Part shown: piece after piece, positions 2,826 through 45,831 of the stretch | Numbering within the stretch: the stretch's first letter is position 1 | Layout: each line of letters opens with the position of its first letter | Assembly: GCA_018693855.1 (NCBI GenBank) | Contig: JABHMO010000029.1 | Span: 1 to 48,480 of the forward strand | Length of the DNA: 48,480 nt | Direction: 5' to 3' | Source of the DNA: Candidatus Falkowbacteria bacterium | Lineage (GTDB): Bacteria; Patescibacteriota; Patescibacteriia; UBA11705; JABHMO01 | The notes under the pieces: model-generated | The model's input: only the letters and a program-made list of their open reading frames with translations | What the model was told of the DNA's origin: nothing | Databases searched by the model: none | Program-made: the position numbers and the translations under genes

Positions 2826-3803
2826 ATGAAGTATTTCGATTTAGTAACTTTTGGTAGCGCACTGAAAGATATCTCTTTTTATAGTGATGAAGTTTTTGTT
2901 GTGAAAAATAAGAAATCAGTCAAAATGCCAAAACTTTTGGCAATGGAATACGGTGCAAAAGTTGCGATCGAAGATCTGTTTGTTACCTACGGTGGCGGCG
3001 CAATGAACGTGGCAGTTGGAACGAAAAACTTTGGTGTGAAAGTTTCTCCAATGATAAGAATTGGAAAAGATAATGTCGGAATGGAGCTTTTTAATTATTT
3101 GAAAAAACAAAAAATTTCAACTGATCTAGTTGAAGTTAGAAAAGAAGATAAAACCGGTTTTTCAATTGTCATTTCATCAGCCAAGGATAAGGAACATACT
3201 ATCTTTACATTCAAAGGTGCAAGTAACCATTTGCAAGTTCATTCATTACGAAATTTTACTACGAAATGGTTTTACGTTGCTAGTCTGACAAGTAAGGATT
3301 GGAAATCTGAGTTTGAAAAAATTACTCGACAAACAAAAAAGGATGTTAAGATCGCTTGGAATCCTGGTGAGTTGCAACTGCGGAATCAGAAGACTTTAAT
3401 AAATTTTTTAAGTTATGTAGAAGTTCTGATTTTGAATAAAAGCGAAGCAATCGAACTTTTATCCGGAATAAAAAAACGAATTAATAAAACTAAACTGCAA
3501 GATAAGAAATATTTATTAAAAGAACTGTTGAATCTAGGGCCGCAAAAAGTTGTAATAACTCTAGGTGAAAAAGGTGTTTGTGCAATTGATGAGAATGAAC
3601 AGTTTTACTACTATCCGTCACAGAGCAATCAAAAAAGGATTGTTGACACAGTTGGTGCTGGCGATGCTTTTTCGTCAGGTTTAATGTCAGGTTTAATAAA
3701 ATTTAAGGATTTCGATAAAGCACTGCAACTTGGAATTAGAAATAGTTCAAACGTTCTCTATCGAGTCGGTGCCCAAAACGGTTTACTGAAAATTAAACTT
3801 TAG
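2826..3803 (+). CDS. PfkB/ribokinase-family carbohydrate kinase
   Basis: GGGAMNVA N-terminal signature; VDTVGAGDAFSSG C-terminal signature. Confidence 0.9.
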   Translation: MKYFDLVTFGSALKDISFYSDEVFVVKNKKSVKMPKLLAMEYGAKVAIEDLFVTYGGGAMNVAVGTKNFGVKVSPMIRIGKDNVGMELFNYLKKQKISTDLVEVRKEDKTGFSIVISSAKDKEHTIFTFKGASNHLQVHSLRNFTTKWFYVASLTSKDWKSEFEKITRQTKKDVKIAWNPGELQLRNQKTLINFLSYVEVLILNKSEAIELLSGIKKRINKTKLQDKKYLLKELLNLGPQKVVITLGEKGVCAIDENEQFYYYPSQSNQKRIVDTVGAGDAFSSGLMSGLIKFKDFDKALQLGIRNSSNVLYRVGAQNGLLKIKL

Positions 3804-3842
3804 TTTTTAATTGGCTATATTTACCAAATTTACAAATATCCT

Positions 3843-4406
3843 ATGAAAATCAAAATTGAAGTATCTGCAAGACACGCTCATTTTACGAATTATGATCTAG
3901 AAGTTTTGTTTGGGGAGGGATATGAACTAAAATCTGATAAGCAATTATCGCAACCAGGTCAGTTCGCGAGTACTGATACAGTTAAAATTGTTGGTCCTGA
4001 GGGAACAATTGACAATGTTCGAGTAATTGGTCCATGTCGAGACAATACTCAGATAGAAATTTCAAAAACTGATGCTCACAAATTGGGCATTAAGGCACCA
4101 ATTCGACTTTCTGGTAAAACAATTGGTTCAGGTGGTGCAACTATAGTTGGTTCTGCTGGTGAGCTTGAGATTGAGGATGGAATCATTGTTGCTAAACGTC
4201 ATATCCACATGAATCCAGAAGAATCTCATCGTGCTGGACTCAGTAATGGTTCATTTGTTGACGTTGAGATAGAAGGTCCAAGAGCGTTAACGTTTAACGA
4301 AGTTGAAGTCCGAGTCCATGAAGATTTTGAAGAATCAATGCACATTGATACTGATGAAGCTAATGCTGCTGGAATTGAAGGACATGATGAAGGGATTATT
4401 AAATAG
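3843..4406 (+). CDS. pduL: PduL-family phosphate acyltransferase
   Basis: VSARHAH, LSQPGQFAS, TQIEISKTD, VAKRHIHM and MHIDTDEANAA. Confidence 0.93.
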   Translation: MKIKIEVSARHAHFTNYDLEVLFGEGYELKSDKQLSQPGQFASTDTVKIVGPEGTIDNVRVIGPCRDNTQIEISKTDAHKLGIKAPIRLSGKTIGSGGATIVGSAGELEIEDGIIVAKRHIHMNPEESHRAGLSNGSFVDVEIEGPRALTFNEVEVRVHEDFEESMHIDTDEANAAGIEGHDEGIIK

Positions 4407-4411
4407 AAGAC

Positions 4412-5530
4412 ATGAAATATACCTTAATAATTAACGCAGGTAGTTCTAGTTTGAAATTCAAGTTGTTTGAATCTGATTTTAATGTTGTGGCAGAAGGTAT
4501 TGTTGAAAAAGTCGGATTGAATGGTTCATTTATTGATTACAAAATTGGTAAAAATAGAAACGTTCAAACAGGTTCAGTGAAAAACCATAAAGACGCCATT
4601 AAGAAGGTGTTTATTTTATTTGAGCAGAATAAATTGGATATAAATTCAATTGTAAAAATAGGACATAGAGTTGTGCATGGTGGAGAAGAGTTTGTTAAAC
4701 CTGTTTTAATAGATAATAAAACTTTGTTAAAAATAGACAAGTATAGTAAATTAGCGCCACTTCATAATCCGAATAATATTGCAGGTATCAAGGCTTGTCA
4801 GAAACTATTACCTAAGGTTCCTAATTACGCAGTTTTTGATACTTCTTTTCATAATACAATCTCTGAGGAGGTCTTTTTGTATCCATTACCATTAAAATTT
4901 TATAAAAAACATCAGATTAGAAAGTATGGATTTCATGGGATTTCTCATCAATATGCAACAGCAGAAGCTGGTAAAAAGTTAAAGAAAAAGAGTCCAAATC
5001 TAATTACATGTCATCTTGGTAGTGGTTGTAGTATTACAGCAATACAAAAAGGCAAATCCATTGATACTTCAATGGGATTTACTCCACTGGAAGGTTTGAT
5101 GATGATGACTCGATCAGGTAATATTGATCCTGCTATAATATTTTATTTAATGGGTCAGGGGTATAGCGCAGCTAATATTGAAGATGTTTTGATTGATCAT
5201 TCTGGATTAAAAGGAGTTTCTGGCTTAAGTGATATGCGAGACATCATGATTGGAGCTGGTTATAAGATTCCCGGTTACAATCCAGATCGGACTTTTGTGA
5301 TTGATGATAAAAAGTCTGCCAAATTAGCTTTAGACATGTTCGTAAACAGAATAAAGAAATATATTGGAAGTTATTCAGCCATTCTAGAAAAAGTGGACGC
5401 AATCGTCTTTACTGGTGGAATAGGGGAACGAAATAAAGATGTTCGTGATTTAATTATGAAAGGGTTGCCAAAGTATAAGGTTGTGGTTGTTGAGGCTGAT
5501 GAGGAGTTGATGATCGCGAAGAAGATTTAA
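4412..5530 (+). CDS. ackA: acetate kinase
   Basis: INAGSSSLKF, GHRVVHGG, APLHNP, YGFHGISH, HLGSG, TSMGFTPLEG and FTGGIGE. Confidence 0.96.
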   Translation: MKYTLIINAGSSSLKFKLFESDFNVVAEGIVEKVGLNGSFIDYKIGKNRNVQTGSVKNHKDAIKKVFILFEQNKLDINSIVKIGHRVVHGGEEFVKPVLIDNKTLLKIDKYSKLAPLHNPNNIAGIKACQKLLPKVPNYAVFDTSFHNTISEEVFLYPLPLKFYKKHQIRKYGFHGISHQYATAEAGKKLKKKSPNLITCHLGSGCSITAIQKGKSIDTSMGFTPLEGLMMMTRSGNIDPAIIFYLMGQGYSAANIEDVLIDHSGLKGVSGLSDMRDIMIGAGYKIPGYNPDRTFVIDDKKSAKLALDMFVNRIKKYIGSYSAILEKVDAIVFTGGIGERNKDVRDLIMKGLPKYKVVVVEADEELMIAKKI

Positions 5531-29571: not shown

Positions 29572-29692
29572 TAAATTGAAAGATATTTAGAAAAAGGTGC
29601 TATTGCATCTTTTTTGTTTTTGTGTTAATATATGATAATTGTTCATTCATAATTTGTTCCGCAACTATTTGCTTCTAACGTTGGAGGGCACG

Positions 29693-30592
29693 ATGAGTAT
29701 ATATCAAGCCGGAAGAACAATCCTTTCTCAGACACCAGGTATCAATGTGATGCAGATACCTAATTATCCACGATTTGAGTGGTATCATTTTTTGCCGCCT
29801 GAAATGGCACTTATGTTGGGTGTGAATTTGCAAAGTGATGTTTCAATGATGTCTATGGCAGCGCACGAATTATTGTTAAAAAATGGCATCCCAACATTCT
29901 TTGTAGAGGCACCATCTATCAATTCTCACGTCGTGCATTCTTGTACAATGTTGCCGTTTGAAGTCGTGATGAGGAGATATCCTGGTGGGCGATTGATTCA
30001 ACGTGATAATTGCCATGTGTATATGTTCGATCATGAATATGTTGTAGATCTGCTGGATGTTTCTGCTATAGAACTGTATTTGTTGACCGAGCAGGGAAAA
30101 GTGATGTTTGACCATTGTCCAATCCCTTTGAAGATCAAAAAACCTTTAGATGGATTAGATAGCTTGTTTGTATCGTTCACAGCTGGAATGGTTGCAGATC
30201 AAATCTCCTTACTTCACTCAACTCATTCCGATCTTCAATCGGAAGTGATGGCTTGTTGTTCGTTAGTTCCTTTTAGACTTTCGAATAAAAAAGTTGTTGA
30301 GATGTTTGATATGGCAGTGAACGCATTTAAGTTATTGGAGGCTGGTTGGGCTCGGGCTGACTATACTCTGATTGATTTGCGTTTGCGATTCGGATTTACT
30401 CAGTCGGGGAAGCTAGTAATTGCTTCTGTGATTGATAGTGATTCCGTGACATTGATATTGACTAATGACAGGCGTTCAAAGGAAACCCTTCGATACGCAG
30501 AATATCTCAGTGCAGTCTCTATGAGAGGTTTACCTGGATTTATTGGATCAATTGCTCAATGCGCTCGACAGTTCTTCCCTGAAAAGGACTAA
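29693..30592 (+). CDS. divergent SAICAR synthetase-like protein
   Basis: GIPTFF, CTMLPFEVVMRRY, LIDLRLRFG and IASVIDSDS align with PurC motifs, but GKTK and D-x-K-x-E-F are altered. Confidence 0.7.
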   Translation: MSIYQAGRTILSQTPGINVMQIPNYPRFEWYHFLPPEMALMLGVNLQSDVSMMSMAAHELLLKNGIPTFFVEAPSINSHVVHSCTMLPFEVVMRRYPGGRLIQRDNCHVYMFDHEYVVDLLDVSAIELYLLTEQGKVMFDHCPIPLKIKKPLDGLDSLFVSFTAGMVADQISLLHSTHSDLQSEVMACCSLVPFRLSNKKVVEMFDMAVNAFKLLEAGWARADYTLIDLRLRFGFTQSGKLVIASVIDSDSVTLILTNDRRSKETLRYAEYLSAVSMRGLPGFIGSIAQCARQFFPEKD

Positions 30593-30723
30593 GACTCACA
30601 TCTGAGCCACTCCCATTGGAGTGGTTTTTAATTTGTAAAATTCGCAGCTTTTTGCTAACATATGGGCAGAATCACTGTTCCTTTTATGGCTATGTTGTTC
30701 ACCCCCTTTTCAAGGAGAAACTC

Positions 30724-31632
30724 ATGTCGGCAAGTATGCTCAAACCTGGTGCTAGGATTGCAATAGGTAAAACAAAGACGATTTATACGGTTGAAGAACA
30801 TCCAGACCTTTGCTGGATCGAAAATCGAGATGATATTACTGCGGATGATGATCCGAGTAAAACAAGAGAGATAGAGGGCAAAGCTCTTTTTGCTACTACA
30901 GTGACCTGCAACGTTTTTGCTCTGTTGAAAAAACTTGGCATAGCTGTCGCATTCAGGGTACAAACAGATGATACGTCCTTTGTCGCAAAACGTTGCAGAA
31001 TGATCCCGATTGAAGTTGTGGTACGACGGTTTGCTGTCGGGAGTTACTTGAAAAGATCTCCTGAATTAGTTGTTGAGGAAGGAGCTCCCCCTCATCGATT
31101 TGAAGACGTTGTTGTCGAACTCTTTCTTAAGACAACAAGAGGTGAGTTGATTGTTAACGATGAGACTGTTGTGTCTGGTCTAAATCCAGGGAAAGGTGAA
31201 GAAGATCCGTTGATGATTTACAATCCTCGGGAGTATGGTAGGTACTATCTTTATCATCCTAAAAGACCAGTAACTCCAGAAAGCTCTTTGAATAGATCTC
31301 TTTCTGTGGATCAATTAGGAGTAAAGCTTGTAAATATTGAAAATATTCAGGAAATATCACGAAGAGTGTTTCTATTGCTTGAAAAAGCATGGGAACGGCT
31401 GGATTGTCGATTGATTGATTTCAAGATTGAGTTTGGGATTACAGCTGACGGGGAATTGGTTGTTGCTGATGTCATTGATAACGACAGTTGGCGATTGCGA
31501 GATCAGGACTGGAATGAGCTGTCAAAACAAGTTTTCCGTGACGGTGCAGGTCTTGACGAAGTTTCGACTGTTTACGAGTTAGTTGCTGAACTATCAAGGA
31601 AATTCCAAGCAATGCAAATCTCTCTCCCATAG
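30724..31632 (+). CDS. purC: SAICAR synthetase (PAICS-like IDNDSWR type)
   Basis: GKTK, MIPIEVVVRR, GSYLKR, LIDFKIEFG, ADVIDNDSWR and KQVFRD; AAGGAG SD. Confidence 0.9.
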   Translation: MSASMLKPGARIAIGKTKTIYTVEEHPDLCWIENRDDITADDDPSKTREIEGKALFATTVTCNVFALLKKLGIAVAFRVQTDDTSFVAKRCRMIPIEVVVRRFAVGSYLKRSPELVVEEGAPPHRFEDVVVELFLKTTRGELIVNDETVVSGLNPGKGEEDPLMIYNPREYGRYYLYHPKRPVTPESSLNRSLSVDQLGVKLVNIENIQEISRRVFLLLEKAWERLDCRLIDFKIEFGITADGELVVADVIDNDSWRLRDQDWNELSKQVFRDGAGLDEVSTVYELVAELSRKFQAMQISLP

Positions 31633-40901: not shown

Positions 40902-43469
40902 ATGCCCGAACTAACTCCCATGTTCAAACAGTTCTACGAAATAAAGGATCAGCATCCAAATGAGTTGCTGCTTTTTCGGATGGGTGATTTTTATGAGATG
41001 TTTGGTGAGGATGCTAAAAAAGCTTCGCGTATTCTAAATATTGTATTAACTGCTAGAAATAAAAATACTCCGAATGAAACACCAATGTGCGGTATTCCTC
41101 ATCATGCTCTTAATAATTATTTATCAAAACTGCTGAAAGCCAATCAACGTGTTGCGATCTGTGACCAAGTTAGCGACCCTACATTACCAGGAATTGTGAA
41201 ACGTGAAGTAACTCGAGTGATAACTCCTGGGACAACTCTTGATGATAATACTCTTGAGAATAAAAACAATAACTTTATCGTCAGTCTTTATTTACAAAAA
41301 AATATCTGGGGACTGGCTGTGGCTGATTTAACAACGGGAGAGTTTAAGGTCGCAGAGATTGCTGATTTTAATTTATTGAAAAATGAACTGTTTCGATTGG
41401 ATTACTCGGAAATAATTTTACCTGAATCTTTATCGAAAAATGAAGATCAAGAAGAGTTTTTAAACGAATTGCGTAATAAAAACATTTTTCAGCTTCCAAA
41501 CTTTGAAAAAGCTTATAAGGTTTTGACAAACCATTTCCAAACTCAGAATTTGAACAGTTTTGGTGTTGAAAAGATGAAAGTTGCAATTGAGGCTTCTGGT
41601 GCTTTGGTGCGATATTTGAAAGAAACGCAAAAAAGTGAGTTAAAACATATTAATAAAATAATGCGATATAGATTTGACGATTGCATGGCTCTAGATGAGG
41701 CAACTATTCGGAATTTAGAGCTGTTCTTCCTCAGTTCAACGGGCGAGTATGAAGGAAGTCTACTTAGCGTACTTGATCGAACAATTACAAATATGGGCGG
41801 GCGAATGTTGCGAAAATGGTTACTTGCTCCATTACTTAAATCAGAAAAAATTGCACAACGTCATGAAGTTGTTGATAAATTTCGGAATGATCATACATTA
41901 ATAAAAAATCTTGCTGAAAAGTTGAAACAGGTCGCTGATTTGGAACGGCTAGTTGCAAGAATCAGTTGTAATAGAACAAATGCTCGAGAACTAGTTGCTT
42001 TGCGATCAAGTTTGCAGTTAATTCCAGAGATTAAGGAGCTAGTTAGTAGTTGCGACGCTTTGATGATTAAAAACTTTGTTTCACAACTACCAGATCATAC
42101 AGAGTTGATTGATTATTTGAATACTGTTTTTGTTGACGATCCTCCAACTTTGATTACTGAGGGCGGTATGATTAATGATGGTTTTAATAAGAAACTTGAT
42201 GAACTGCGAGAGATTTCTAAGGGCGGTAAAAGTTGGCTGAACGAATTTCAAGCTAAGGAAGTGGAACGGACAGGAATTACTTCAATGAAAGTTAAATATA
42301 ACAGAGTTTTTGGTTATTATCTTGAAATTAGCAAATCAAATCTTGATCAAGTGCCAGAGGACTATATTAGAAAACAGACGCTTGTTAATGCAGAGCGATT
42401 CGTTACGCCAGAGCTAAAAGAGTATGAAGAAAAGATTCTAAATGCTGAAGACGAGATTCATAAAATTGAACATCAGATATTTTTAGAAGCTGTTGAGAAA
42501 GTTATGACCTTTTTTGAATCAATTGCGAAAACAGCTGATATTATTGCTCAGATTGATGTTTTGCTTTCATTCTCGATTATTGCTAATGAGAACAGCTACG
42601 TCATGCCTCAGATCGCTCAGGGTGGGGAAGTTGTGATTAAAGACGGTCGGCATCCAGTGATTGAAAAATTTCAAAAAGAGATGTATATCCCAAATGATTT
42701 GGAGTTGAATCATGATAAGCAGGAACTTCTACTTCTGACTGGTCCAAATATGAGTGGTAAGTCTAGTTTTCTGCGACAGACTGCTCTGATCTGTCTGATG
42801 TCTCAGATTGGTTCATTTGTACCTGCCAAGGCAGCTCAGATCTCTATTGTTGATCGGATTTTTACTAGAGTTGGCGCTTCTGATAATTTAGCACAAGGGA
42901 TCTCTACTTTTATGGCTGAGATGCAGGAAGCTGCTAATATTATTAATAATGCAACAAAAGATTCACTGATAATTCTAGATGAACTAGGTCGAGGTACTTC
43001 GACTTATGATGGAGTTAGTATTGCTTGGGCAATGATAGATTATATTCATAATAATGTCGGTGCCAAGACTTTATTCGCGACTCATTACCATGAACTCACT
43101 GATGTGATTGATAAACTCGATAGAGCTGATAACTACTGTGTCGCAGTTAGTGAGAATGAAGGCAAGGTCGTTTTTCTACACAAGATCGTCAAAGGTGCTA
43201 GTTCGCAAAGTTATGGAATTGAAGTTGCCAAATTAGCAGGATTGCCTGATGAATTAATCAACAAAGCATCTCAAATATTGCAAAACCTAGAATCAAAAAC
43301 AGCTTTAAATAACAATAAAAAAGAAGTCCAGCAAGGGACTTTGCCCCTTAATCTAACCCCCAAAGAAAAAGAAGTCACAGACAATCTGAAGAAAGTCGAC
43401 GTGAATAACTTAACTCCCATGGAAGCGCTTAAGAAGTTGTCTGATTTGACGGATGAGCTGAAAGGTTAA
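40902..43469 (+). CDS. mutS: DNA mismatch repair protein MutS
   Basis: FRMGDFYEMF, GRHPVIE, TGPNMSGKS, DELGRGTST, FATHYHEL and YGIEVA. Confidence 0.98.
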   Translation: MPELTPMFKQFYEIKDQHPNELLLFRMGDFYEMFGEDAKKASRILNIVLTARNKNTPNETPMCGIPHHALNNYLSKLLKANQRVAICDQVSDPTLPGIVKREVTRVITPGTTLDDNTLENKNNNFIVSLYLQKNIWGLAVADLTTGEFKVAEIADFNLLKNELFRLDYSEIILPESLSKNEDQEEFLNELRNKNIFQLPNFEKAYKVLTNHFQTQNLNSFGVEKMKVAIEASGALVRYLKETQKSELKHINKIMRYRFDDCMALDEATIRNLELFFLSSTGEYEGSLLSVLDRTITNMGGRMLRKWLLAPLLKSEKIAQRHEVVDKFRNDHTLIKNLAEKLKQVADLERLVARISCNRTNARELVALRSSLQLIPEIKELVSSCDALMIKNFVSQLPDHTELIDYLNTVFVDDPPTLITEGGMINDGFNKKLDELREISKGGKSWLNEFQAKEVERTGITSMKVKYNRVFGYYLEISKSNLDQVPEDYIRKQTLVNAERFVTPELKEYEEKILNAEDEIHKIEHQIFLEAVEKVMTFFESIAKTADIIAQIDVLLSFSIIANENSYVMPQIAQGGEVVIKDGRHPVIEKFQKEMYIPNDLELNHDKQELLLLTGPNMSGKSSFLRQTALICLMSQIGSFVPAKAAQISIVDRIFTRVGASDNLAQGISTFMAEMQEAANIINNATKDSLIILDELGRGTSTYDGVSIAWAMIDYIHNNVGAKTLFATHYHELTDVIDKLDRADNYCVAVSENEGKVVFLHKIVKGASSQSYGIEVAKLAGLPDELINKASQILQNLESKTALNNNKKEVQQGTLPLNLTPKEKEVTDNLKKVDVNNLTPMEALKKLSDLTDELKG

Positions 43470-43558
43470 GGTTTGTCGAGGTGGGGGGAGAATACTTGAT
43501 TTACTGATCAGTCGTTTTTGTCAAAAGTTAAGTGTTAAATGTCAAATGTTTTTTACTA

Positions 43559-43587
43559 TTGACATAAAACAAACAATTAGCTAATAT
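43559..43587 (+). promoter_or_regulatory. sigma70 promoter of structured RNA 1
   Basis: TTGACA-N17-TAATAT, preceded by a 7-bp T(C/T)AA(A/G)TG array. Confidence 0.8.
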
Positions 43588-43593
43588 ATCTTT

Positions 43594-44020
43594 ATCCGGA
43601 GGTGGCAACGACCTCCTTGCCTGGAAGTCCGAGAATATTGACGAAACTCCGGACTGGCAAAAAAATGTGCAGTTGTCGGACTGTGCGGGCTTGTTTCGGG
43701 AGGACCGAACGCGAGCTAAAAGTTGCGCTTCTCCTCGCGGGAGAGCATCAACGAGAGATGTGAACGGTGATTTAGTCGGAAGAGTCGTGACGTTCTAAGA
43801 AGCCCTTTGTGGTGGAGAGTGATCGAACTTTCGGGTCAACTTGATCATCTAGGAGAAGTGTATTCTTGGTTTTCGTAAACGCCACCAAGAATACGTCGGA
43901 AATCATGCTTGACGCCTGTATTGGTCCAAACGGCCATCTATACAGCTATTCGCACGATTTCCGACATTCCGACCGATTATCCAAGCTCGTCCTCTTCTTC
44001 GAGGGCGCGCTTTTCTTTTT
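43594..44020 (+). ncRNA. large structured RNA 1, unknown class (~430 nt)
   Basis: GC-rich island bounded by a promoter and terminator, with dense hairpins (e.g. GGAGGT/ACCTCC, GTATTCTTGGT/ACCAAGAATAC, GTCGGAAATC/GATTTCCGAC). No credible ORF. Confidence 0.75.
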
Positions 44021-44074
44021 ATTTATTAATTGTGATTTTCAAGTCAAATGTCAAGTGTTAAATGTTTCTTATCC

Positions 44075-44103
44075 TTGACATAAAGTAAGTTCTGTACTAG
44101 AAT
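44075..44103 (+). promoter_or_regulatory. sigma70 promoter of structured RNA 2
   Basis: TTGACA-N17-TAGAAT, preceded by the same 7-bp array. Confidence 0.8.
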
Positions 44104-44109
44104 GTGTCT

Positions 44110-44471
44110 ATGCGAGGGGGGGAGGTACCATTCCTCTTGAACTTACACCGGCTACGGTGTGCTAGGTTCGAAATGGCGAGTGGGGAGCCAAGACTCCATT
44201 TGCGCAGTCCTTCGGGGCCATCACATTTGTACTCTTCTTACTTGGGTCGTAGACCTGAGCCGTCAGAGGGATGGCGGGGCTTTTGCAACCCTTCCATTAA
44301 GAATGTATCTTCGAGATTTGCGGGCCAGCCCATATAGCTGGATCTCTCAAGACAAAGTCCGTTGATCCGATTATTTGGTGTCTATAGAACACTTAGATCA
44401 ACTTCCTCGGACCCTTCTTGGCCGCGATCATCATAGCTCGTCTCCGACTTTCGGAGGCGCGCTTTTCTTTT
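44110..44471 (+). ncRNA. large structured RNA 2, apparent paralogue of RNA 1 (~360 nt)
   Basis: Same two-hairpin 5' layout and the same 3' end CGAT(T/C)ATC..AGCTCGTC...GGCGCGCTTTTCTTTT; includes a cUUCGg tetraloop. Confidence 0.75.
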
Positions 44472-44564
44472 AAAAACTTTAATTGTTTGTACATGTTAGT
44501 ATTTATTCTTGCAATTGACGCAAATTTCCTCTATAATTTATATAATAAATAATCGAAATAAAAT

Positions 44565-44768
44565 ATGGCAAGTTTTGAGAATCTTCCTCAGGAAGTTGTT
44601 CCAAGTAATGCAAGTAGCGAACAAGTTGAAAGAGAGATGTGGGAACACAGAATGCCTGCCTTAAAAAGAGCATTACAAGAACTTCGTCAAGATGGACGAA
44701 AGCAATTTTTTACATTGTCAGATTTAGCTAATGATAGATTGGCAAAAATGAATAAACAAGAAGTATGA
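44565..44768 (+). CDS. small hypothetical protein
   Basis: 67 aa, behind a TTGACG...TATAAT promoter-like site. Confidence 0.55.
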   Translation: MASFENLPQEVVPSNASSEQVEREMWEHRMPALKRALQELRQDGRKQFFTLSDLANDRLAKMNKQEV

Positions 44769-44854
44769 CAGACGAACAATTGCTTGATGTCCCTGAATCT
44801 CAGCGAAATGAGATTGTTGCTTTAGCTAATAGCTGGATAGAACTAATACATTAA
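44765..44854 (+). CDS. 29-aa ORF overlapping the previous stop (ATGA), possibly a frameshifted continuation
   Basis: MTDEQLLDVPESQRNEIVALANSWIELIH. Confidence 0.35.
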   Translation: MTDEQLLDVPESQRNEIVALANSWIELIH

Positions 44855-44974
44855 AATGTCATGTAGAATAGCCAGAATTATTATTATGTTTTAGATTTTT
44901 TTGTAATTTGGCTTAGAGGTCGACATAACTTATTATATAACTATATTTAACGATTTATAATTAATCTATAAACT

Positions 44975-45319
44975 ATGGAAAAACCAACAGAAATGGGTAC
45001 AGAAGTACTCGACAAAGAGAAAATTCAGGTGGACTCTCTTAATGAGTCATGGGGAGTTATATTAGTCAAGAAAGATGGGAAAGTATATCTCATTAACATG
45101 GGAACGTCCTCACTTGATTTGATACAACAGGGATATTCAGATTCAAACGGTAATTTCGATTTAGTCAAGTATTTTCCTGATGCAGAGCAACTTGGTGTGG
45201 TCGTTGAAGTTCAAGGGGACGATTTAGGTGCTATGAATGAAGAATTTGACAATGTTAACGGAAACAGACATGCGGAGTGGCCAACGGTTCAGAAATACTT
45301 AGATCAAATCAAAAAATAA
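44975..45319 (+). CDS. hypothetical protein
   Basis: 114-aa ORF with an AT-rich leader. Confidence 0.7.
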   Translation: MEKPTEMGTEVLDKEKIQVDSLNESWGVILVKKDGKVYLINMGTSSLDLIQQGYSDSNGNFDLVKYFPDAEQLGVVVEVQGDDLGAMNEEFDNVNGNRHAEWPTVQKYLDQIKK

Positions 45320-45552
45320 ATTATAAAAAGTATTAAGAAAAGGACGTTTTTGGCTACATCTGATTACAGTATTTGTTTGGTTATGGGACGTTGGTATTAG
45401 TTAAATTTGTATAGAGTGTTAATTTCCCTCTGTTCGAATTTTCATTCATTGGCTTGATGAAGGTTCGAGTGGAGTTTAATGAAAAACGTGTATCTGGTAA
45501 GCGTGGTTATTTTATTATTAAAAGGAGAACTTTAGGTATACGTAAGTGTTGT

Positions 45553-45831
45553 ATGACAGACGAACAATTACTTAGAATAAACAATTTACTTGACGGCTCG
45601 GACTTGACCGACGAAGCTAGGGATTTGTTGCGGCAGTTTTTTGAGTCTATTGCGGCTCAACCTCAATTTGAAAAGATTTTGAATCTGTTAGAAAAATTCC
45701 CGTCTTTGTTTGATAATTTCTGTCATTGCTTTGAATTAAAAAGAAAATTCTTGGCTTCAGGCGCAACTGAAGATCAATGGAATAAGTTTTTGGAGAAAGA
45801 AAAGACTTTCTTTGAGGAAATTGATAAATAA
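45553..45831 (+). CDS. small helical hypothetical protein
   Basis: Likely start MTDEQLL; 92 aa. Confidence 0.7.
   Translation: MTDEQLLRINNLLDGSDLTDEARDLLRQFFESIAAQPQFEKILNLLEKFPSLFDNFCHCFELKRKFLASGATEDQWNKFLEKEKTFFEEIDK

What the first reader, a model, noticed from the sequence alone, without database searches (positions are those of the whole stretch)
43520..44471. Tandem pair of large, apparently paralogous, highly structured RNAs of unknown class
Seen: two GC-rich islands in AT-rich DNA, each with a 7-bp array plus a TTGACA-N17 promoter and a predicted +1 A exactly 7 nt after the -10 (AUCCGGAGG / AUGCGAGGG). Each has two successive 5' hairpins followed by AAAUG. A long-range stem opens at GAUUU (43766-43781 with 43967-43981; 44315-44328 with 44418-44429) and encloses a multibranch domain whose last arm starts GUC(G/C)G. 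The 3' ends are near-identical, AGCUCGUC-hairpin-GGCGCGCUUUUCUUUU, with covarying stems. Primary sequence is otherwise divergent, so structure rather than sequence appears conserved. No tmRNA, RNase P, SRP, 6S or intron hallmarks were seen, and no RT, nuclease or transposase is adjacent. Inference: a new multi-copy large ncRNA family (ribozyme, scaffold or guide-like).
Basis: partly seen in the sequence, partly recalled or inferred. Interest (0 to 1): 0.88.

Follow-up and report, generated by a model that had tools for sequence, protein, structure and literature searches.

The report
Tandem orphan structured RNA genes after mutS
Two neighbouring genes in a tiny candidate-phyla-radiation bacterium appear to make highly folded RNAs of about 400 bases that match no known RNA family; relatives carry one to three such genes at the same spot, and what they do is unknown.

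Summary
The observation largely holds. Window 43470-44565 is an ORF-poor spacer after mutS in a ~1 Mb, 36% GC Patescibacteria genome. It holds two GC-rich units (43594-44020, 44110-44471). Each has a near-consensus TTGACA-N17 promoter and a near-identical intrinsic terminator that occurs nowhere else in the genome. Rfam 15 gives no credible hit, and RNase P RNA and tmRNA lie on other contigs. Unit A has an orthologue in one metagenome contig (L080). Single-base indels there rule out a conserved ORF. A second contig (L081) carries three tandem units of the same build. Contigs from two RNA libraries cover unit A exactly. Units A and B share no detectable sequence beyond their expression signals, so paralogy rests on a common layout seen by eye. 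That layout includes a hairpin loop complementary to the 3' tail in 6 of 6 units, in four sequence versions. The statistics for it are modest. The family is known from three genomes only. Verdict: real, probably expressed, lineage-specific orphan ncRNA genes of a fast-evolving family. Function is unknown; my best guess is a compact protein-binding or scaffold RNA.

The parts
40902..43469 (+). mutS (855 aa), the only neighbour conserved across all related loci
   Evidence: Pfam MutS domains I-V, E 7e-84 to 1e-27. A MutS match is present in 16 of 16 family genomes.
43520..43547 (+). 7-bp tandem array (GTYAAAK x4) upstream of promoter A
   Evidence: It is one of 15 such arrays in the genome, so it is not specific to the RNA genes.
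43559..43587 (+). Promoter A: TTGACA-17-TAATAT
   Evidence: 10 of 12 matches. It is conserved in L080.
43594..44020 (+). Unit A, predicted ~427-nt ncRNA. The 5' end is predicted only.
   Evidence: GC 0.50; MFE -157.1 kcal/mol, z -3.83; the minus strand folds 16 kcal/mol weaker. Orthologue at L080:3680-4089. RNA-library contigs cover 43606-43789 and 43608-43759 with 0 differences.
43598..43616 (+). A-P1 hairpin (GGAGGU / ACCUCC). Its loop at 43604-43610 contains GCAAC.
   Evidence: It is identical in L080. R1 aligns U1 to the same P1 register, with 2 of its 6 pairs non-standard.
43669..43684 (+). A-P3 hairpin. Its loop UGUCGG lies at 43674-43679.
   Evidence: The stem differs in sequence in U1 and U3 while staying paired and the loop motif is kept. 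This loop is the top or tied-top complement to the 3' tail.
43722..43726 (+). A-PK1 strand GUUGC, complementary to the P1 loop (tentative pseudoknot)
   Evidence: The same pairing is seen in L080A, U1 and U3, and different complementary pairs in U2 and B. It is not significant on its own.
43895..43965 (+). A-P7, a long 3' hairpin; together with the tail and terminator, the block best conserved against L080
   Evidence: For the structure tested (P7 plus terminator), 35 pairs are 98.6% paired across the two sequences, with 2 one-sided changes and 1 broken pair.
43968..43973 (+). A-PK2 strand UCCGAC in the 3' tail, complementary to the P3 loop (tentative). A second copy lies at 43961-43966. GAUUAU follows at 43975-43980.
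43988..44020 (+). Terminator A (7-bp stem plus T tract)
   Evidence: The motif occurs only twice in the genome.
44043..44063 (+). 7-bp tandem array upstream of promoter B
44075..44103 (+). Promoter B: TTGACA-17-TAGAAT
   Evidence: 11 of 12 matches.
44110..44471 (+). Unit B, predicted ~362-nt ncRNA
   Evidence: GC 0.52; MFE -128.3 kcal/mol, z -2.14; the minus strand gives -112.5. No homologue was found by BLASTN or nhmmer. The two RNA libraries laid have no contig on it.
44119..44136 (+). B-P1 hairpin. Its loop GUACCA lies at 44125-44130. The complementary GUAC lies at 44229-44232 (tentative PK1).
44182..44197 (+). B-P3 hairpin. Its loop CCAAGA lies at 44188-44193. The complementary UCUUGG lies at 44416-44421 in the 3' tail (tentative PK2).
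   Evidence: (P 0.007 against a shuffled tail).
44439..44471 (+). Terminator B (9-bp stem plus T tract)
44565..44768 (+). 67-aa ORF of unknown function downstream. A homologous ORF follows the RNA unit in L080, but not in L081.

Best explanation
Window 43594-44020 and 44110-44471 are two independent, same-strand, non-coding RNA genes. They belong to a fast-evolving family specific to one small clade of Patescibacteria (relatives are titled Kuenenbacteria, Falkowbacteria and Parcubacteria).

Each unit would be transcribed from its own near-consensus sigma-70-type promoter. Each would end at its own strong intrinsic terminator, giving stable RNAs of about 430 and 360 nt.

My reading of the fold:
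- A 5' domain of four hairpins (P1-P4).
- A central domain that is freely replaced between close relatives.
- A 3' hairpin domain, then a short tail.
- The loop of P3 pairs with the 3' tail, and the loop of P1 pairs with a strand after P4. Together these would tie the ends into a compact body.

I think the RNAs act in trans as stable structural RNAs that bind or scaffold protein, as 6S, CsrB-type or OLE RNAs do, rather than as antisense regulators.

Shown:
- GC-rich, ORF-poor islands with promoter and terminator signals.
- No match to a known family.
- An orthologue with frame-breaking indels.
- Tandem arrays in relatives.
- Presence of unit A in RNA libraries.

Inferred:
- The transcript ends.
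- The fold and both long-range pairings.
- That B belongs to the same family as A.
- The mode of action.

The confidence of 0.5 is for the whole statement. I put about 0.8 on 'real ncRNA genes', about 0.6 on 'A and B are one family', and about 0.3 on the proposed mode of action.
For: Gene signals:
- Promoters and terminators.
- The terminator motif is unique to these two units in the genome.

Non-coding:
- A 1-nt indel lies directly after the only shared AUG, plus a 36-nt insertion.
- Three 1-nt indels lie within the 91%-identical 3' block.
- 0 of 8 internal ORFs have a Pfam family at E<=0.01.

Structure:
- MFE z-scores are -3.83, -2.14, -1.82, -5.42, -3.63 and -6.23 for A, B, L080A, U1, U2 and U3.
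- The plus strand folds 16 kcal/mol better than the minus strand in both units.
- A against its orthologue: 31 pairs 98.4% paired, with 2 double-sided changes; 35 pairs 98.6% paired.

Family:
- L080 has one unit and L081 three in tandem, all downstream of mutS. Each has a TTGAC promoter and an array-specific near-identical terminator.
- Model R1, built without L081, aligns U1 over its full length in the register I had read by eye (E 0.031 in 1.4 kb).

Long-range pairing:
- The P3 loop against the 3' tail gives 5-6 Watson-Crick pairs in 6 of 6 units, in four sequence versions. P is 0.007-0.12 per unit against shuffled tails.
- In an enumeration of all hairpin loops, P3 is the top or tied-top partner in 6 of 6 units.

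Expression:
- In two metatranscriptome assemblies, contigs match 43606-43789 and 43608-43759 with 0 differences. A third contig is a variant allele.
- Apart from one 35-nt piece with 4 differences inside mutS (43296-43330, from a contig that runs on unlike at both ends), no RNA contig lies on mutS, unit B or the downstream ORFs in the 3.2 kb laid.

Stability and context:
- The locus is identical in DNA contigs from two further studies (X3 record 3; X5 records 13 and 14).
- The surrounding genes are housekeeping genes.
Against: - A and B share no detectable sequence outside their promoter-upstream and terminator regions.
- Covariance models R1 and R2 do not recover B, U2 or U3.
- The PK1 pairing is not significant on its own (P 0.16-0.75). 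The proposed P5 helix is not either.
- With all loops allowed, the per-unit P for the loop-tail pairing is only 0.05-0.73. Unrelated islands from other genera reach 3-6 nt.
- For U1 and U3 the MFE fold pairs the same tail with an 8-bp partner near the 5' end instead.
- With two orthologues the covariation counts do not beat shuffles (116 of 500).
- RNA-library contigs cannot show strand, ends or level, and such libraries can contain DNA.
- Unit B has no expression evidence and no homologue.
- Only three genomes carry the family. BLASTN found no homologue in 15 other genomes of the taxonomic family.
- No protein partner is known. The proposed mode of action is an analogy, not a result.
Confidence: 0.5

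Rival explanations
1. They are long trans-acting base-pairing regulators ('sibling sRNAs'). The conserved ends provide stability and factor binding. The variable centre provides different target-pairing sequences in each copy.
For: - Tandem same-strand genes, each with its own promoter and terminator.
- Conserved 5' and 3' blocks with a replaced centre between A and L080A.
- Copy number varies from 1 to 3.
- This layout resembles known sibling sRNA pairs (recalled, not tested).
Against: - At 350-445 nt, with strongly negative folding z-scores, they are far larger and more folded than typical base-pairing sRNAs.
- A whole-genome DNA search with either unit found only itself. Short antisense seeds were not searched for.
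Confidence: 0.15
2. One or both units are a very divergent form of a housekeeping RNA that Rfam cannot recognise in this lineage (SRP RNA or 6S RNA).
For: - Small SRP RNA is undetected in 16 of 16 family genomes.
- Large SRP RNA and 6S RNA are undetected in this genome.
- The RNase P RNA hit is below the family's gathering score (84.4 against 100 bits). Rfam models therefore do fit this lineage poorly.
Against: - A housekeeping RNA should be single-copy and present across the family. BLASTN finds no homologue in 15 other family genomes, and copy number is 1-3.
- The centre of the molecule is replaced between close relatives.
- The predicted folds are multi-branched, not the single rod of about 100-190 nt expected for 4.5S or 6S RNA (expected shapes are recalled).
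- A permissive scan (E<=10) over 1.4 kb gave no SRP, 6S, RNase P or tmRNA match.
- The genome holds other orphan islands that would suit better.
Confidence: 0.07
3. They are mRNAs for small proteins or peptides.
For: - ORFs of 43-77 codons exist inside the units, and both have an AUG after the second hairpin.
- In other genera the same spacer holds small ORFs with ribosome-binding sites. One example is a 46-codon hydrophobic ORF in L034.
Against: - A 1-nt insertion directly after the AUG in the orthologue changes the frame.
- There are three more 1-nt indels in the conserved 3' block.
- No Shine-Dalgarno sequence precedes the AUGs.
- No Pfam match.
- The plus strand folds more stably than the minus strand, as expected if G-U pairs contribute.
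Confidence: 0.05
4. They are large ribozymes or RNA-only assemblies. In that case the loop-strand complementarities would be catalytic-core pseudoknots or intermolecular kissing contacts.
For: - Size, GC enrichment and recurring long-range complementarity that differs between co-resident copies.
- Large orphan bacterial RNAs have been shown to form RNA-only complexes (10.1101/2024.12.08.627333; only the search listing and the start of the abstract were seen).
Against: - There is no conserved unpaired core sequence across the six units beyond short motifs.
- No substrate or cleavage site is evident.
- The distribution is too narrow to judge.
Confidence: 0.08
5. They are transcribed but functionless or selfish DNA: decayed remnants, or cassettes that pile up in a recombination hot spot downstream of mutS.
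For: - The mutS-mutL spacer varies widely across the family, from under 100 nt to 1.6 kb, with unrelated GC-rich islands, mosaic modules and small units.
- Within each array the terminators and upstream arrays are homogenised while the bodies are unrelated. That is a pattern recombination could produce.
Against: - A ~1 Mb streamlined genome keeps 1 kb here with intact near-consensus promoters and terminators.
- The locus is identical in DNA contigs from two further studies.
- Substitutions between orthologues largely preserve pairing.
- No integrase, transposase or RT was found among the 17 neighbouring ORFs scanned.
Confidence: 0.1

Closest known systems
Orphan large structured bacterial ncRNAs (OLE, GOLLD, ROOL, raiA motif RNAs)
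   Same: Stand-alone RNA genes of several hundred nucleotides, GC-enriched and multi-domain, with functions unknown or only partly known. These classes were seen only as search listings and abstract starts: PMC9723947, 10.1101/2024.12.08.627333 and PMC10861870.
   Different: No match to any of the 4227 Rfam models. Those classes are sequence-conserved across many genera. This family is known from three genomes, and its members are not alignable to each other by nhmmer. It also occurs in tandem arrays of 1-3 copies.
Sibling sRNA gene pairs such as OmrA/OmrB of enterobacteria (recalled, not tested here)
   Same: Adjacent same-strand genes, each with its own promoter and terminator. The ends are similar and the centre is divergent.
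   Different: These units are four to five times longer and strongly folded. Similarity between A and B is limited to sequences outside or at the very end of the transcript. No target or chaperone is known.
RNase P RNA and tmRNA
   Same: Similar size (about 350-430 nt), GC-rich islands in an AT-rich genome, and long-range pairings that close the molecule.
   Different: Both are present elsewhere in the genome: C39:8053-8367 and C10:25566-25958. The units match neither model even at E<=10, and ARAGORN finds nothing.
Protein-sequestering RNAs (6S, CsrB/RsmZ type)
   Same: Abundant stand-alone RNAs, sometimes in several divergent copies per genome. This is the mode of action I consider most likely.
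   Different: No 6S model match. The predicted shape is not rod-like. No repeated loop motif comparable to the GGA sites of CsrB-type RNAs was established. The recurring GUCGG elements are mostly complementary to CCGAC elements within the same RNA.

Membership tests
RNase P RNA (bacterial) | Scores against the Rfam covariance models (conserved P4 core) | tested here: not met
   No match at gathering score or at E<=10 over 43300-44700. The genome's RNase P RNA is at C39:8053-8367 (84.4 bits).
tmRNA | tRNA-like domain plus tag reading frame | tested here: not met
   ARAGORN finds 0 genes in the window. No Rfam match. tmRNA lies at C10:25566-25958 (131.9 bits).
SRP RNA (4.5S or long form) | Match to the small or large bacterial SRP model | tested here: not met
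   These models also fail on 16 of 16 family genomes, so this negative result is weak.
SRP RNA (4.5S or long form) | Single-copy gene conserved across the lineage | tested here: not met
   No BLASTN homologue in 15 other family genomes. Copy number is 1-3 in the three carriers.
6S RNA | Match to the 6S model; rod of about 180-200 nt with a central bubble (shape recalled) | tested here: not met
   No match. The predicted folds are multi-branched and 362-427 nt long.
Known large ncRNA classes held in Rfam 15 (for example OLE, GOLLD, ROOL, HEARO, raiA) | Score against the family's covariance model | tested here: not met
   0 of 4227 families at gathering score. The only hit at E<=10 is a 14-bit chance match to an insect lncRNA model, lying over the array and promoter of unit B.
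Sibling (tandemly duplicated) ncRNA genes | Adjacent same-strand genes, each with its own promoter and terminator | tested here: met
   The same arrangement is seen in L081.
Sibling (tandemly duplicated) ncRNA genes | Detectable homology between the copies | tested here: inconclusive
   - Sequence: none between the bodies of A and B.
- Shared: the upstream array, promoter and terminator.
- Layout and loop-tail complementarity are shared in 6 of 6 units, but were read by eye and have modest statistics.
Small-protein mRNA | Reading frame conserved in orthologues | tested here: not met
   Frame-breaking 1-nt indels. No Pfam match for 8 ORFs at E<=0.01.
Mobile element or cassette RNA (retron, group II intron, IS-associated guide RNA, integron cassette) | Adjacent RT, nuclease, transposase or integrase gene | tested here: not met
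   Pfam on 17 ORFs between 29639 and 48018 finds only housekeeping families (SAICAR synthetase, adenylosuccinate lyase, AlaRS, MutS, LexA) or no family.

The most novel reading that the evidence does not exclude
A new class of large, pseudoknotted bacterial RNA confined to a lineage of candidate-phyla-radiation bacteria. In this reading it is kept as tandem arrays of copies whose internal loop-receptor pairs have diverged so that each copy folds, or self-associates, only with itself. The mutS-mutL spacer would then be a nursery for such RNA genes across the whole family, since other genera hold unrelated GC-rich promoter-to-terminator islands at the same spot.
Probability: 0.3. Interest if true: 0.8.

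Novelty: new variant of a known kind. Interest (0 to 1): 0.6.

Why it matters
Candidate-phyla-radiation bacteria have tiny genomes and almost no experimentally characterised RNAs. This roughly 1 Mb genome keeps about 1 kb for two strongly promoted, highly folded transcripts that match nothing known, and relatives keep one to three of them. That points to an RNA function still missing from our picture of these organisms.

The locus also shows that standard RNA annotation fits this lineage poorly. SRP RNA was undetected in 16 of 16 genomes of the family. The genome holds several more orphan GC-rich islands. If the fold holds up, this would add a member to the short list of large bacterial RNAs of unknown function. 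It would also offer a natural case of co-resident copies with mutually exclusive tertiary contacts.

Tried and rejected
- **Known RNA families.** Rfam at gathering score and at E<=10 gave nothing usable. ARAGORN gave nothing.
- **DNA homology.** BLASTN of 43500-44480 against 15 other family genomes matched only one site, and that was to the 7-bp array. BLASTN against phage records gave no match. Two exact-pattern scans of viral contigs gave 21 and 120 or more stretches. A follow-up BLASTN showed only 19-32-nt chance matches.
- **Covariance models.**
  - R1 was built from A plus L080A. It finds U1 only weakly and none of B, U2 or U3.
  - R2 was built from A plus U1. It finds A, U1 and L080A only.
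  - A search of 26 genomes of the order with R2 returned nothing. It also failed to return unit A in the window's own genome, so it shows nothing.
  - MAFFT alignments of the six units or their 5' parts were not in structural register, so I did not use them for a third model.
- **Proposed P5 helix** (43727-43735 with 43851-43859). It is attractive by eye but not distinguishable from chance.
- **PK1** alone is not significant.
- **Same layout in other genera.** Islands from other genera (L024, L025, L083, L087, L089) show no recurring loop-tail pairing. They are mosaic relatives of each other, not of A or B.
- **RNA libraries.** No contig lay on unit B, on mutS (apart from one 35-nt piece with 4 differences) or on the downstream ORFs in X7 and X8.
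- **mutL link.** In this genome mutL lies on another contig with no RNA island upstream.
- **Literature.** Four full-text searches listed no paper on such RNAs in Patescibacteria. I saw listings and abstract starts only and read no paper. Supplementary files were not consulted.
- **Closed or failed tools.** A request for a record handle for L081 was answered with an error, and I did not pursue sub-slicing of that locus.
Full report
**Where the window lies.** The window is contig C44 of a 995,244-base, 48-contig assembly, 92.9% complete and 36.2% GC. The closest named relatives of its MutS are titled Candidatus Kuenenbacteria, Falkowbacteria and Parcubacteria group. It is therefore a small candidate-phyla-radiation (Patescibacteria) genome. 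The finding lies in a 1095-base spacer between mutS (40902-43469; Pfam MutS I-V) and a 67-codon ORF of unknown function (44565-44768). Pfam on 17 ORFs between 29639 and 48018 finds two SAICAR-synthetase-like ORFs, adenylosuccinate lyase, alanyl-tRNA synthetase, MutS, a DUF5684 membrane protein and LexA. The remaining ORFs have no family above Pfam's cut-off. There is no reverse transcriptase, nuclease, transposase or integrase.

**Checking the observation.**
- GC rises to 0.53-0.545 in two islands, against 0.33-0.37 around them.
- The consensus scan finds TTGACA-17-TAATAT at 43559-43587 and TTGACA-17-TAGAAT at 44075-44103.
- It finds terminator hairpins at 43988-44007 and 44439-44459, each followed by CGCTTTTCTT.
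- An A lies 7 nt after each -10 element.
- The terminator motif occurs only at these two places in the genome.
- Upstream of each promoter lies a 7-bp tandem array. Such arrays occur at 15 sites in the genome, and 5 of them lie within 5 nt of a predicted ORF end. They are a genome-wide element and not part of this gene family.
- The two units align only in the array-promoter region and in the last ~35 nt. nhmmer finds no similarity between their bodies at E<=1.
- Single-sequence folds are more stable than dinucleotide shuffles: z -3.83 for A and -2.14 for B.
- The plus strand folds 16 kcal/mol better than the minus strand in both units. This agrees with the orientation of the promoters and terminators.

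**Known families.** Rfam 15 gives no match at gathering score in the whole window. At E<=10 over 43300-44700 it gives only a 14-bit chance match to an insect lncRNA model. ARAGORN finds nothing. The genome's RNase P RNA (C39:8053-8367, 84.4 bits, below the cut-off of 100) and tmRNA (C10:25566-25958, 131.9 bits) lie elsewhere.

There is a caution. The small SRP RNA model finds nothing in this genome or in any of the 16 genomes of the family. The large SRP and 6S models find nothing in this genome either. Rfam therefore fits this lineage poorly, and 'no hit' counts for less than usual. Even so, the units do not behave like a housekeeping RNA:
- BLASTN finds no homologue in 15 other family genomes.
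- Copy number varies between carriers.
- The centre of the molecule is replaced between close relatives.

**Relatives.** I used the C-terminal 289 residues of MutS as an anchor and fetched the mutS-downstream region from three sources: 15 family genomes, 46 genome contigs and 71 metagenome contigs. Only the closest locus, L080 (MutS 84% identical), has a BLASTN homologue of unit A.
- L080:3680-4089 is 82% identical over the first ~198 nt and 91% over the last ~134 nt. The centre is unalignable.
- It keeps the 7-bp array, the promoter and a nearly identical terminator.
- It is followed by a homologue of the 67-codon ORF.
- Unit B is absent there. A different ~110-nt promoter-to-terminator unit precedes the A homologue.

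The next closest locus, L081 (MutS 79%), has 1.6 kb without a long ORF. It contains three tandem units: U1 (3634-4076), U2 (4185-4534) and U3 (4586-4964). Each has a TTGAC promoter, and all three end in one near-identical terminator that differs from the window's. Their fold z-scores are -5.42, -3.63 and -6.23; L080A gives -1.82. Among themselves the L081 units share only their 3' ends by nhmmer.

**Coding potential.**
- There are three 1-nt indels in the 3' block.
- None of the 8 ORFs of 43-77 codons inside the units matches Pfam at E<=0.01.
- No Shine-Dalgarno sequence precedes the AUGs.

A conserved translated ORF does not explain the islands.

**Expression.** Eight public runs hold part of the stretch. 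I laid two RNA libraries and two DNA runs on 42400-45600.
- The RNA assemblies contain contigs identical to 43606-43789 (X8) and 43608-43759 (X7).
- A third contig (X7) matches 43718-43899 with 11 differences and 2 gaps. Its loose end resembles the extra hairpin of L080 (25 of 30 letters, by eye). A variant allele is therefore present in RNA as well.
- The only other RNA piece in the 3.2 kb is a 35-nt match with 4 differences inside mutS. It comes from a contig that runs on unlike at both ends. No RNA contig lies on unit B or on the downstream ORFs.
- By the tool's own cautions, contigs show neither strand, ends nor level, and RNA libraries can hold DNA. This is supportive but not proof, and it says nothing about unit B.
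- DNA contigs from two other studies (X3, X5) carry the units without differences.

**Structure.** Between A and L080A the hairpins I assign are kept:
- 5' domain: 31 pairs, 98.4% paired, 2 pairs changed on both sides, 4 changed on one side, 1 broken.
- 3' hairpin plus terminator: 35 pairs, 98.6% paired, 2 one-sided changes, 1 broken.
- With two sequences this does not beat the shuffle control (116 of 500).

Reading the six units side by side, I see a common order of elements:
1. A first hairpin, P1.
2. A variable hairpin, P2.
3. An A-rich linker.
4. A short hairpin, P3.
5. A variable hairpin, P4.
6. An A-rich stretch.
7. A short strand complementary to the P1 loop.
8. A pyrimidine-rich strand.
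9. A variable centre.
10. A 3' hairpin domain.
11. A tail containing a strand complementary to the P3 loop, followed by a GAU(U/C)AU-like motif.
12. The terminator.

The P1-loop pairing reads GCAAC/GUUGC in A, L080A, U1 and U3. It reads AUAGC/GCUAU in U2 and GUAC/GUAC in B.

The P3-loop/tail pairing takes four forms:

| Units | P3 loop | Tail strand |
|---|---|---|
| A, L080A | UGUCGG / GUCGG | CCGACA / CCGAC |
| U1, U3 | UCGGG | CCCGA |
| U2 | GGUCUG | CAGACC |
| B | CCAAGA | UCUUGG |

Model R1, built from A and L080A only, aligned U1 over its whole length in the same register (7.2 bits, E 0.031 in 1.4 kb). That is a small independent check of the layout.

**How strong is the structural evidence?**
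- Against shuffled 45-nt tails, the P3-loop/tail pairing has P 0.007-0.12 per unit.
- In cross-comparisons, the loops of B and U2 fit their own tails (6 nt) better than any other unit's tail (2-5 nt).
- When every possible hairpin loop in the first 130 nt may compete, P3 is still the top or tied-top partner in 6 of 6 units. Per-unit P then rises to 0.05-0.73.
- Five unrelated islands from other genera reach 3-6 nt without a pattern.
- The P1-loop pairing alone is not significant, and neither is the pyrimidine/purine helix I proposed around the centre.
- For U1 and U3 the MFE fold pairs the tail with an 8-bp partner near the 5' end instead.
Its 5' strand lies in the segment that L080 has replaced, so it is not conserved.

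My conclusion is that the 3' tail pairs with an element of the 5' domain in every unit, and that the P3 loop is the only partner available in all six. This is a hypothesis with moderate support, not a demonstrated pseudoknot.

**Limits of the family.**
- Models R1 and R2 do not recover B, U2 or U3.
- A genome search with R2 failed its own positive control.
- The claim that A and B are paralogues therefore rests on four things: their shared expression signals, their position, their similar size and composition, and the layout above. I put it at about 0.6.
- The family is known from three genomes.

**The wider locus.** In other genera of the same taxonomic family the spacer after mutS varies widely.
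- In some loci the next long ORF follows within 2-70 nt.
- In others the spacer is 177-393 nt. One of these (L034) holds a 46-codon hydrophobic ORF.
- In L024, L025, L083/L084, L087 and L089 the spacer holds a GC-rich island of 400-700 nt without a long ORF, bounded by a promoter and a terminator. In L024, L025, L083 and L087 the ORF that follows reads as mutL.
- L039 holds four small units of this kind.
- Those islands have no Rfam match (which covered L024 and L025). They share mosaic modules with each other, not with A or B.
- In the window's genome mutL has moved to another contig.

The spot after mutS thus looks like a place where RNA genes are gained, duplicated and replaced.

**What it most likely is and does.** I am fairly confident (about 0.8) that these are real non-coding RNA genes, at least unit A. 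The mode of action is inference. The evidence points to a stable, compactly folded RNA acting through its shape:
- strong promoters;
- GC enrichment typical of stable RNAs in AT-rich genomes;
- multi-domain folds;
- conserved paired ends with a replaceable centre;
- no conserved long single-stranded seed;
- no linked protein gene.

Most probably the RNA binds or scaffolds protein. Rivals are long base-pairing regulators, a ribozyme or RNA-only assembly, a divergent housekeeping RNA, small-protein mRNAs, and functionless cassettes. Each is weighed in the Rival explanations section.

**Novelty and score.** No family in Rfam 15 matches. Four full-text searches listed no paper on such RNAs in these bacteria (listings and abstract starts only). 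I file it as a new variant of a known kind, namely stand-alone sibling structured ncRNA genes. No new mechanism is shown, the distribution is narrow and the covariation is thin. Interest is 0.6. A specialist would want to see it because large orphan RNAs are rare and CPR RNA biology is almost blank. The case needs more homologues and an experiment before it can carry weight.

Noticed in passing
window 43520-43547 and 44043-44063; 13 further sites in the genome (for example C10:25447-25467, C28:3629-3656, C39:1336-1363): Tandem arrays of a 7-bp unit (GTYAAAK, 3-4 copies) occur at 15 sites in the 995 kb genome. Five of them lie within 5 nt of a predicted ORF end, and one lies about 100 nt upstream of the tmRNA gene in the opposite orientation. 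A related genome (G004) has one too. Their role is unknown.
   Followed up: partly
whole genome G000 and family genomes G001-G015: The Rfam small SRP RNA model finds nothing at E<=1 in 16 of 16 genomes of this family, 14 of which are at least 90% complete. The large SRP and 6S models find nothing in G000. The RNase P RNA hit is below its gathering score. Either these RNAs are very divergent here or they are missing.
   Followed up: partly
G000:C14:25090-25560 (L156:120-600): A second tandem pair of GC-rich, ORF-free units of about 240 nt. Each has a promoter-like site and a terminator, and they share short motifs. They have no Rfam match and look unrelated to units A and B.
   Followed up: partly
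G000:C21:1832-2058 (L160); C48:10001-10236 (L158); C48:24668-24899 (L159): Further orphan GC-rich islands with TTGAC-type promoters and terminators and no Rfam match at E<=0.1. The one at C48:24668-24899 looks by eye like a long rod capped by a GAAA loop. It would be worth testing as the missing SRP RNA.
   Followed up: partly
L024:2460-2900, L025:2440-2870, L083:3270-3960, L087:3465-3880, L089:3470-4100: In other genera of the family the spacer after mutS holds GC-rich islands of 400-700 nt (up to 68% GC) bounded by a promoter and a terminator; in L024, L025, L083 and L087 the ORF that follows reads as mutL. These islands share mosaic modules with each other. No Rfam match was found for the two that were scanned (L024 and L025).
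   Followed up: partly
L039:3377-4600; L034:3368-3760: L039 has four small promoter-to-terminator units in a 1.2 kb ORF-free stretch after mutS, one with a short Cys-rich ORF. L034 has a 46-codon hydrophobic ORF with a ribosome-binding site between mutS and mutL.
   Followed up: no
L080:3455-3600: A separate unit of about 110 nt, with its own TTGACA promoter and terminator, sits between mutS and the unit A homologue. It is absent from the window.
   Followed up: no
G000:C40:1927-3816: In this genome mutL lies on a different 4.2 kb contig, not after mutS as in most relatives. There is no RNA island upstream of it.
   Followed up: partly
window 29639-31632: Two adjacent ORFs (317 and 338 aa) both match the SAICAR synthetase family. 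The first matches only weakly and in part.
   Followed up: no
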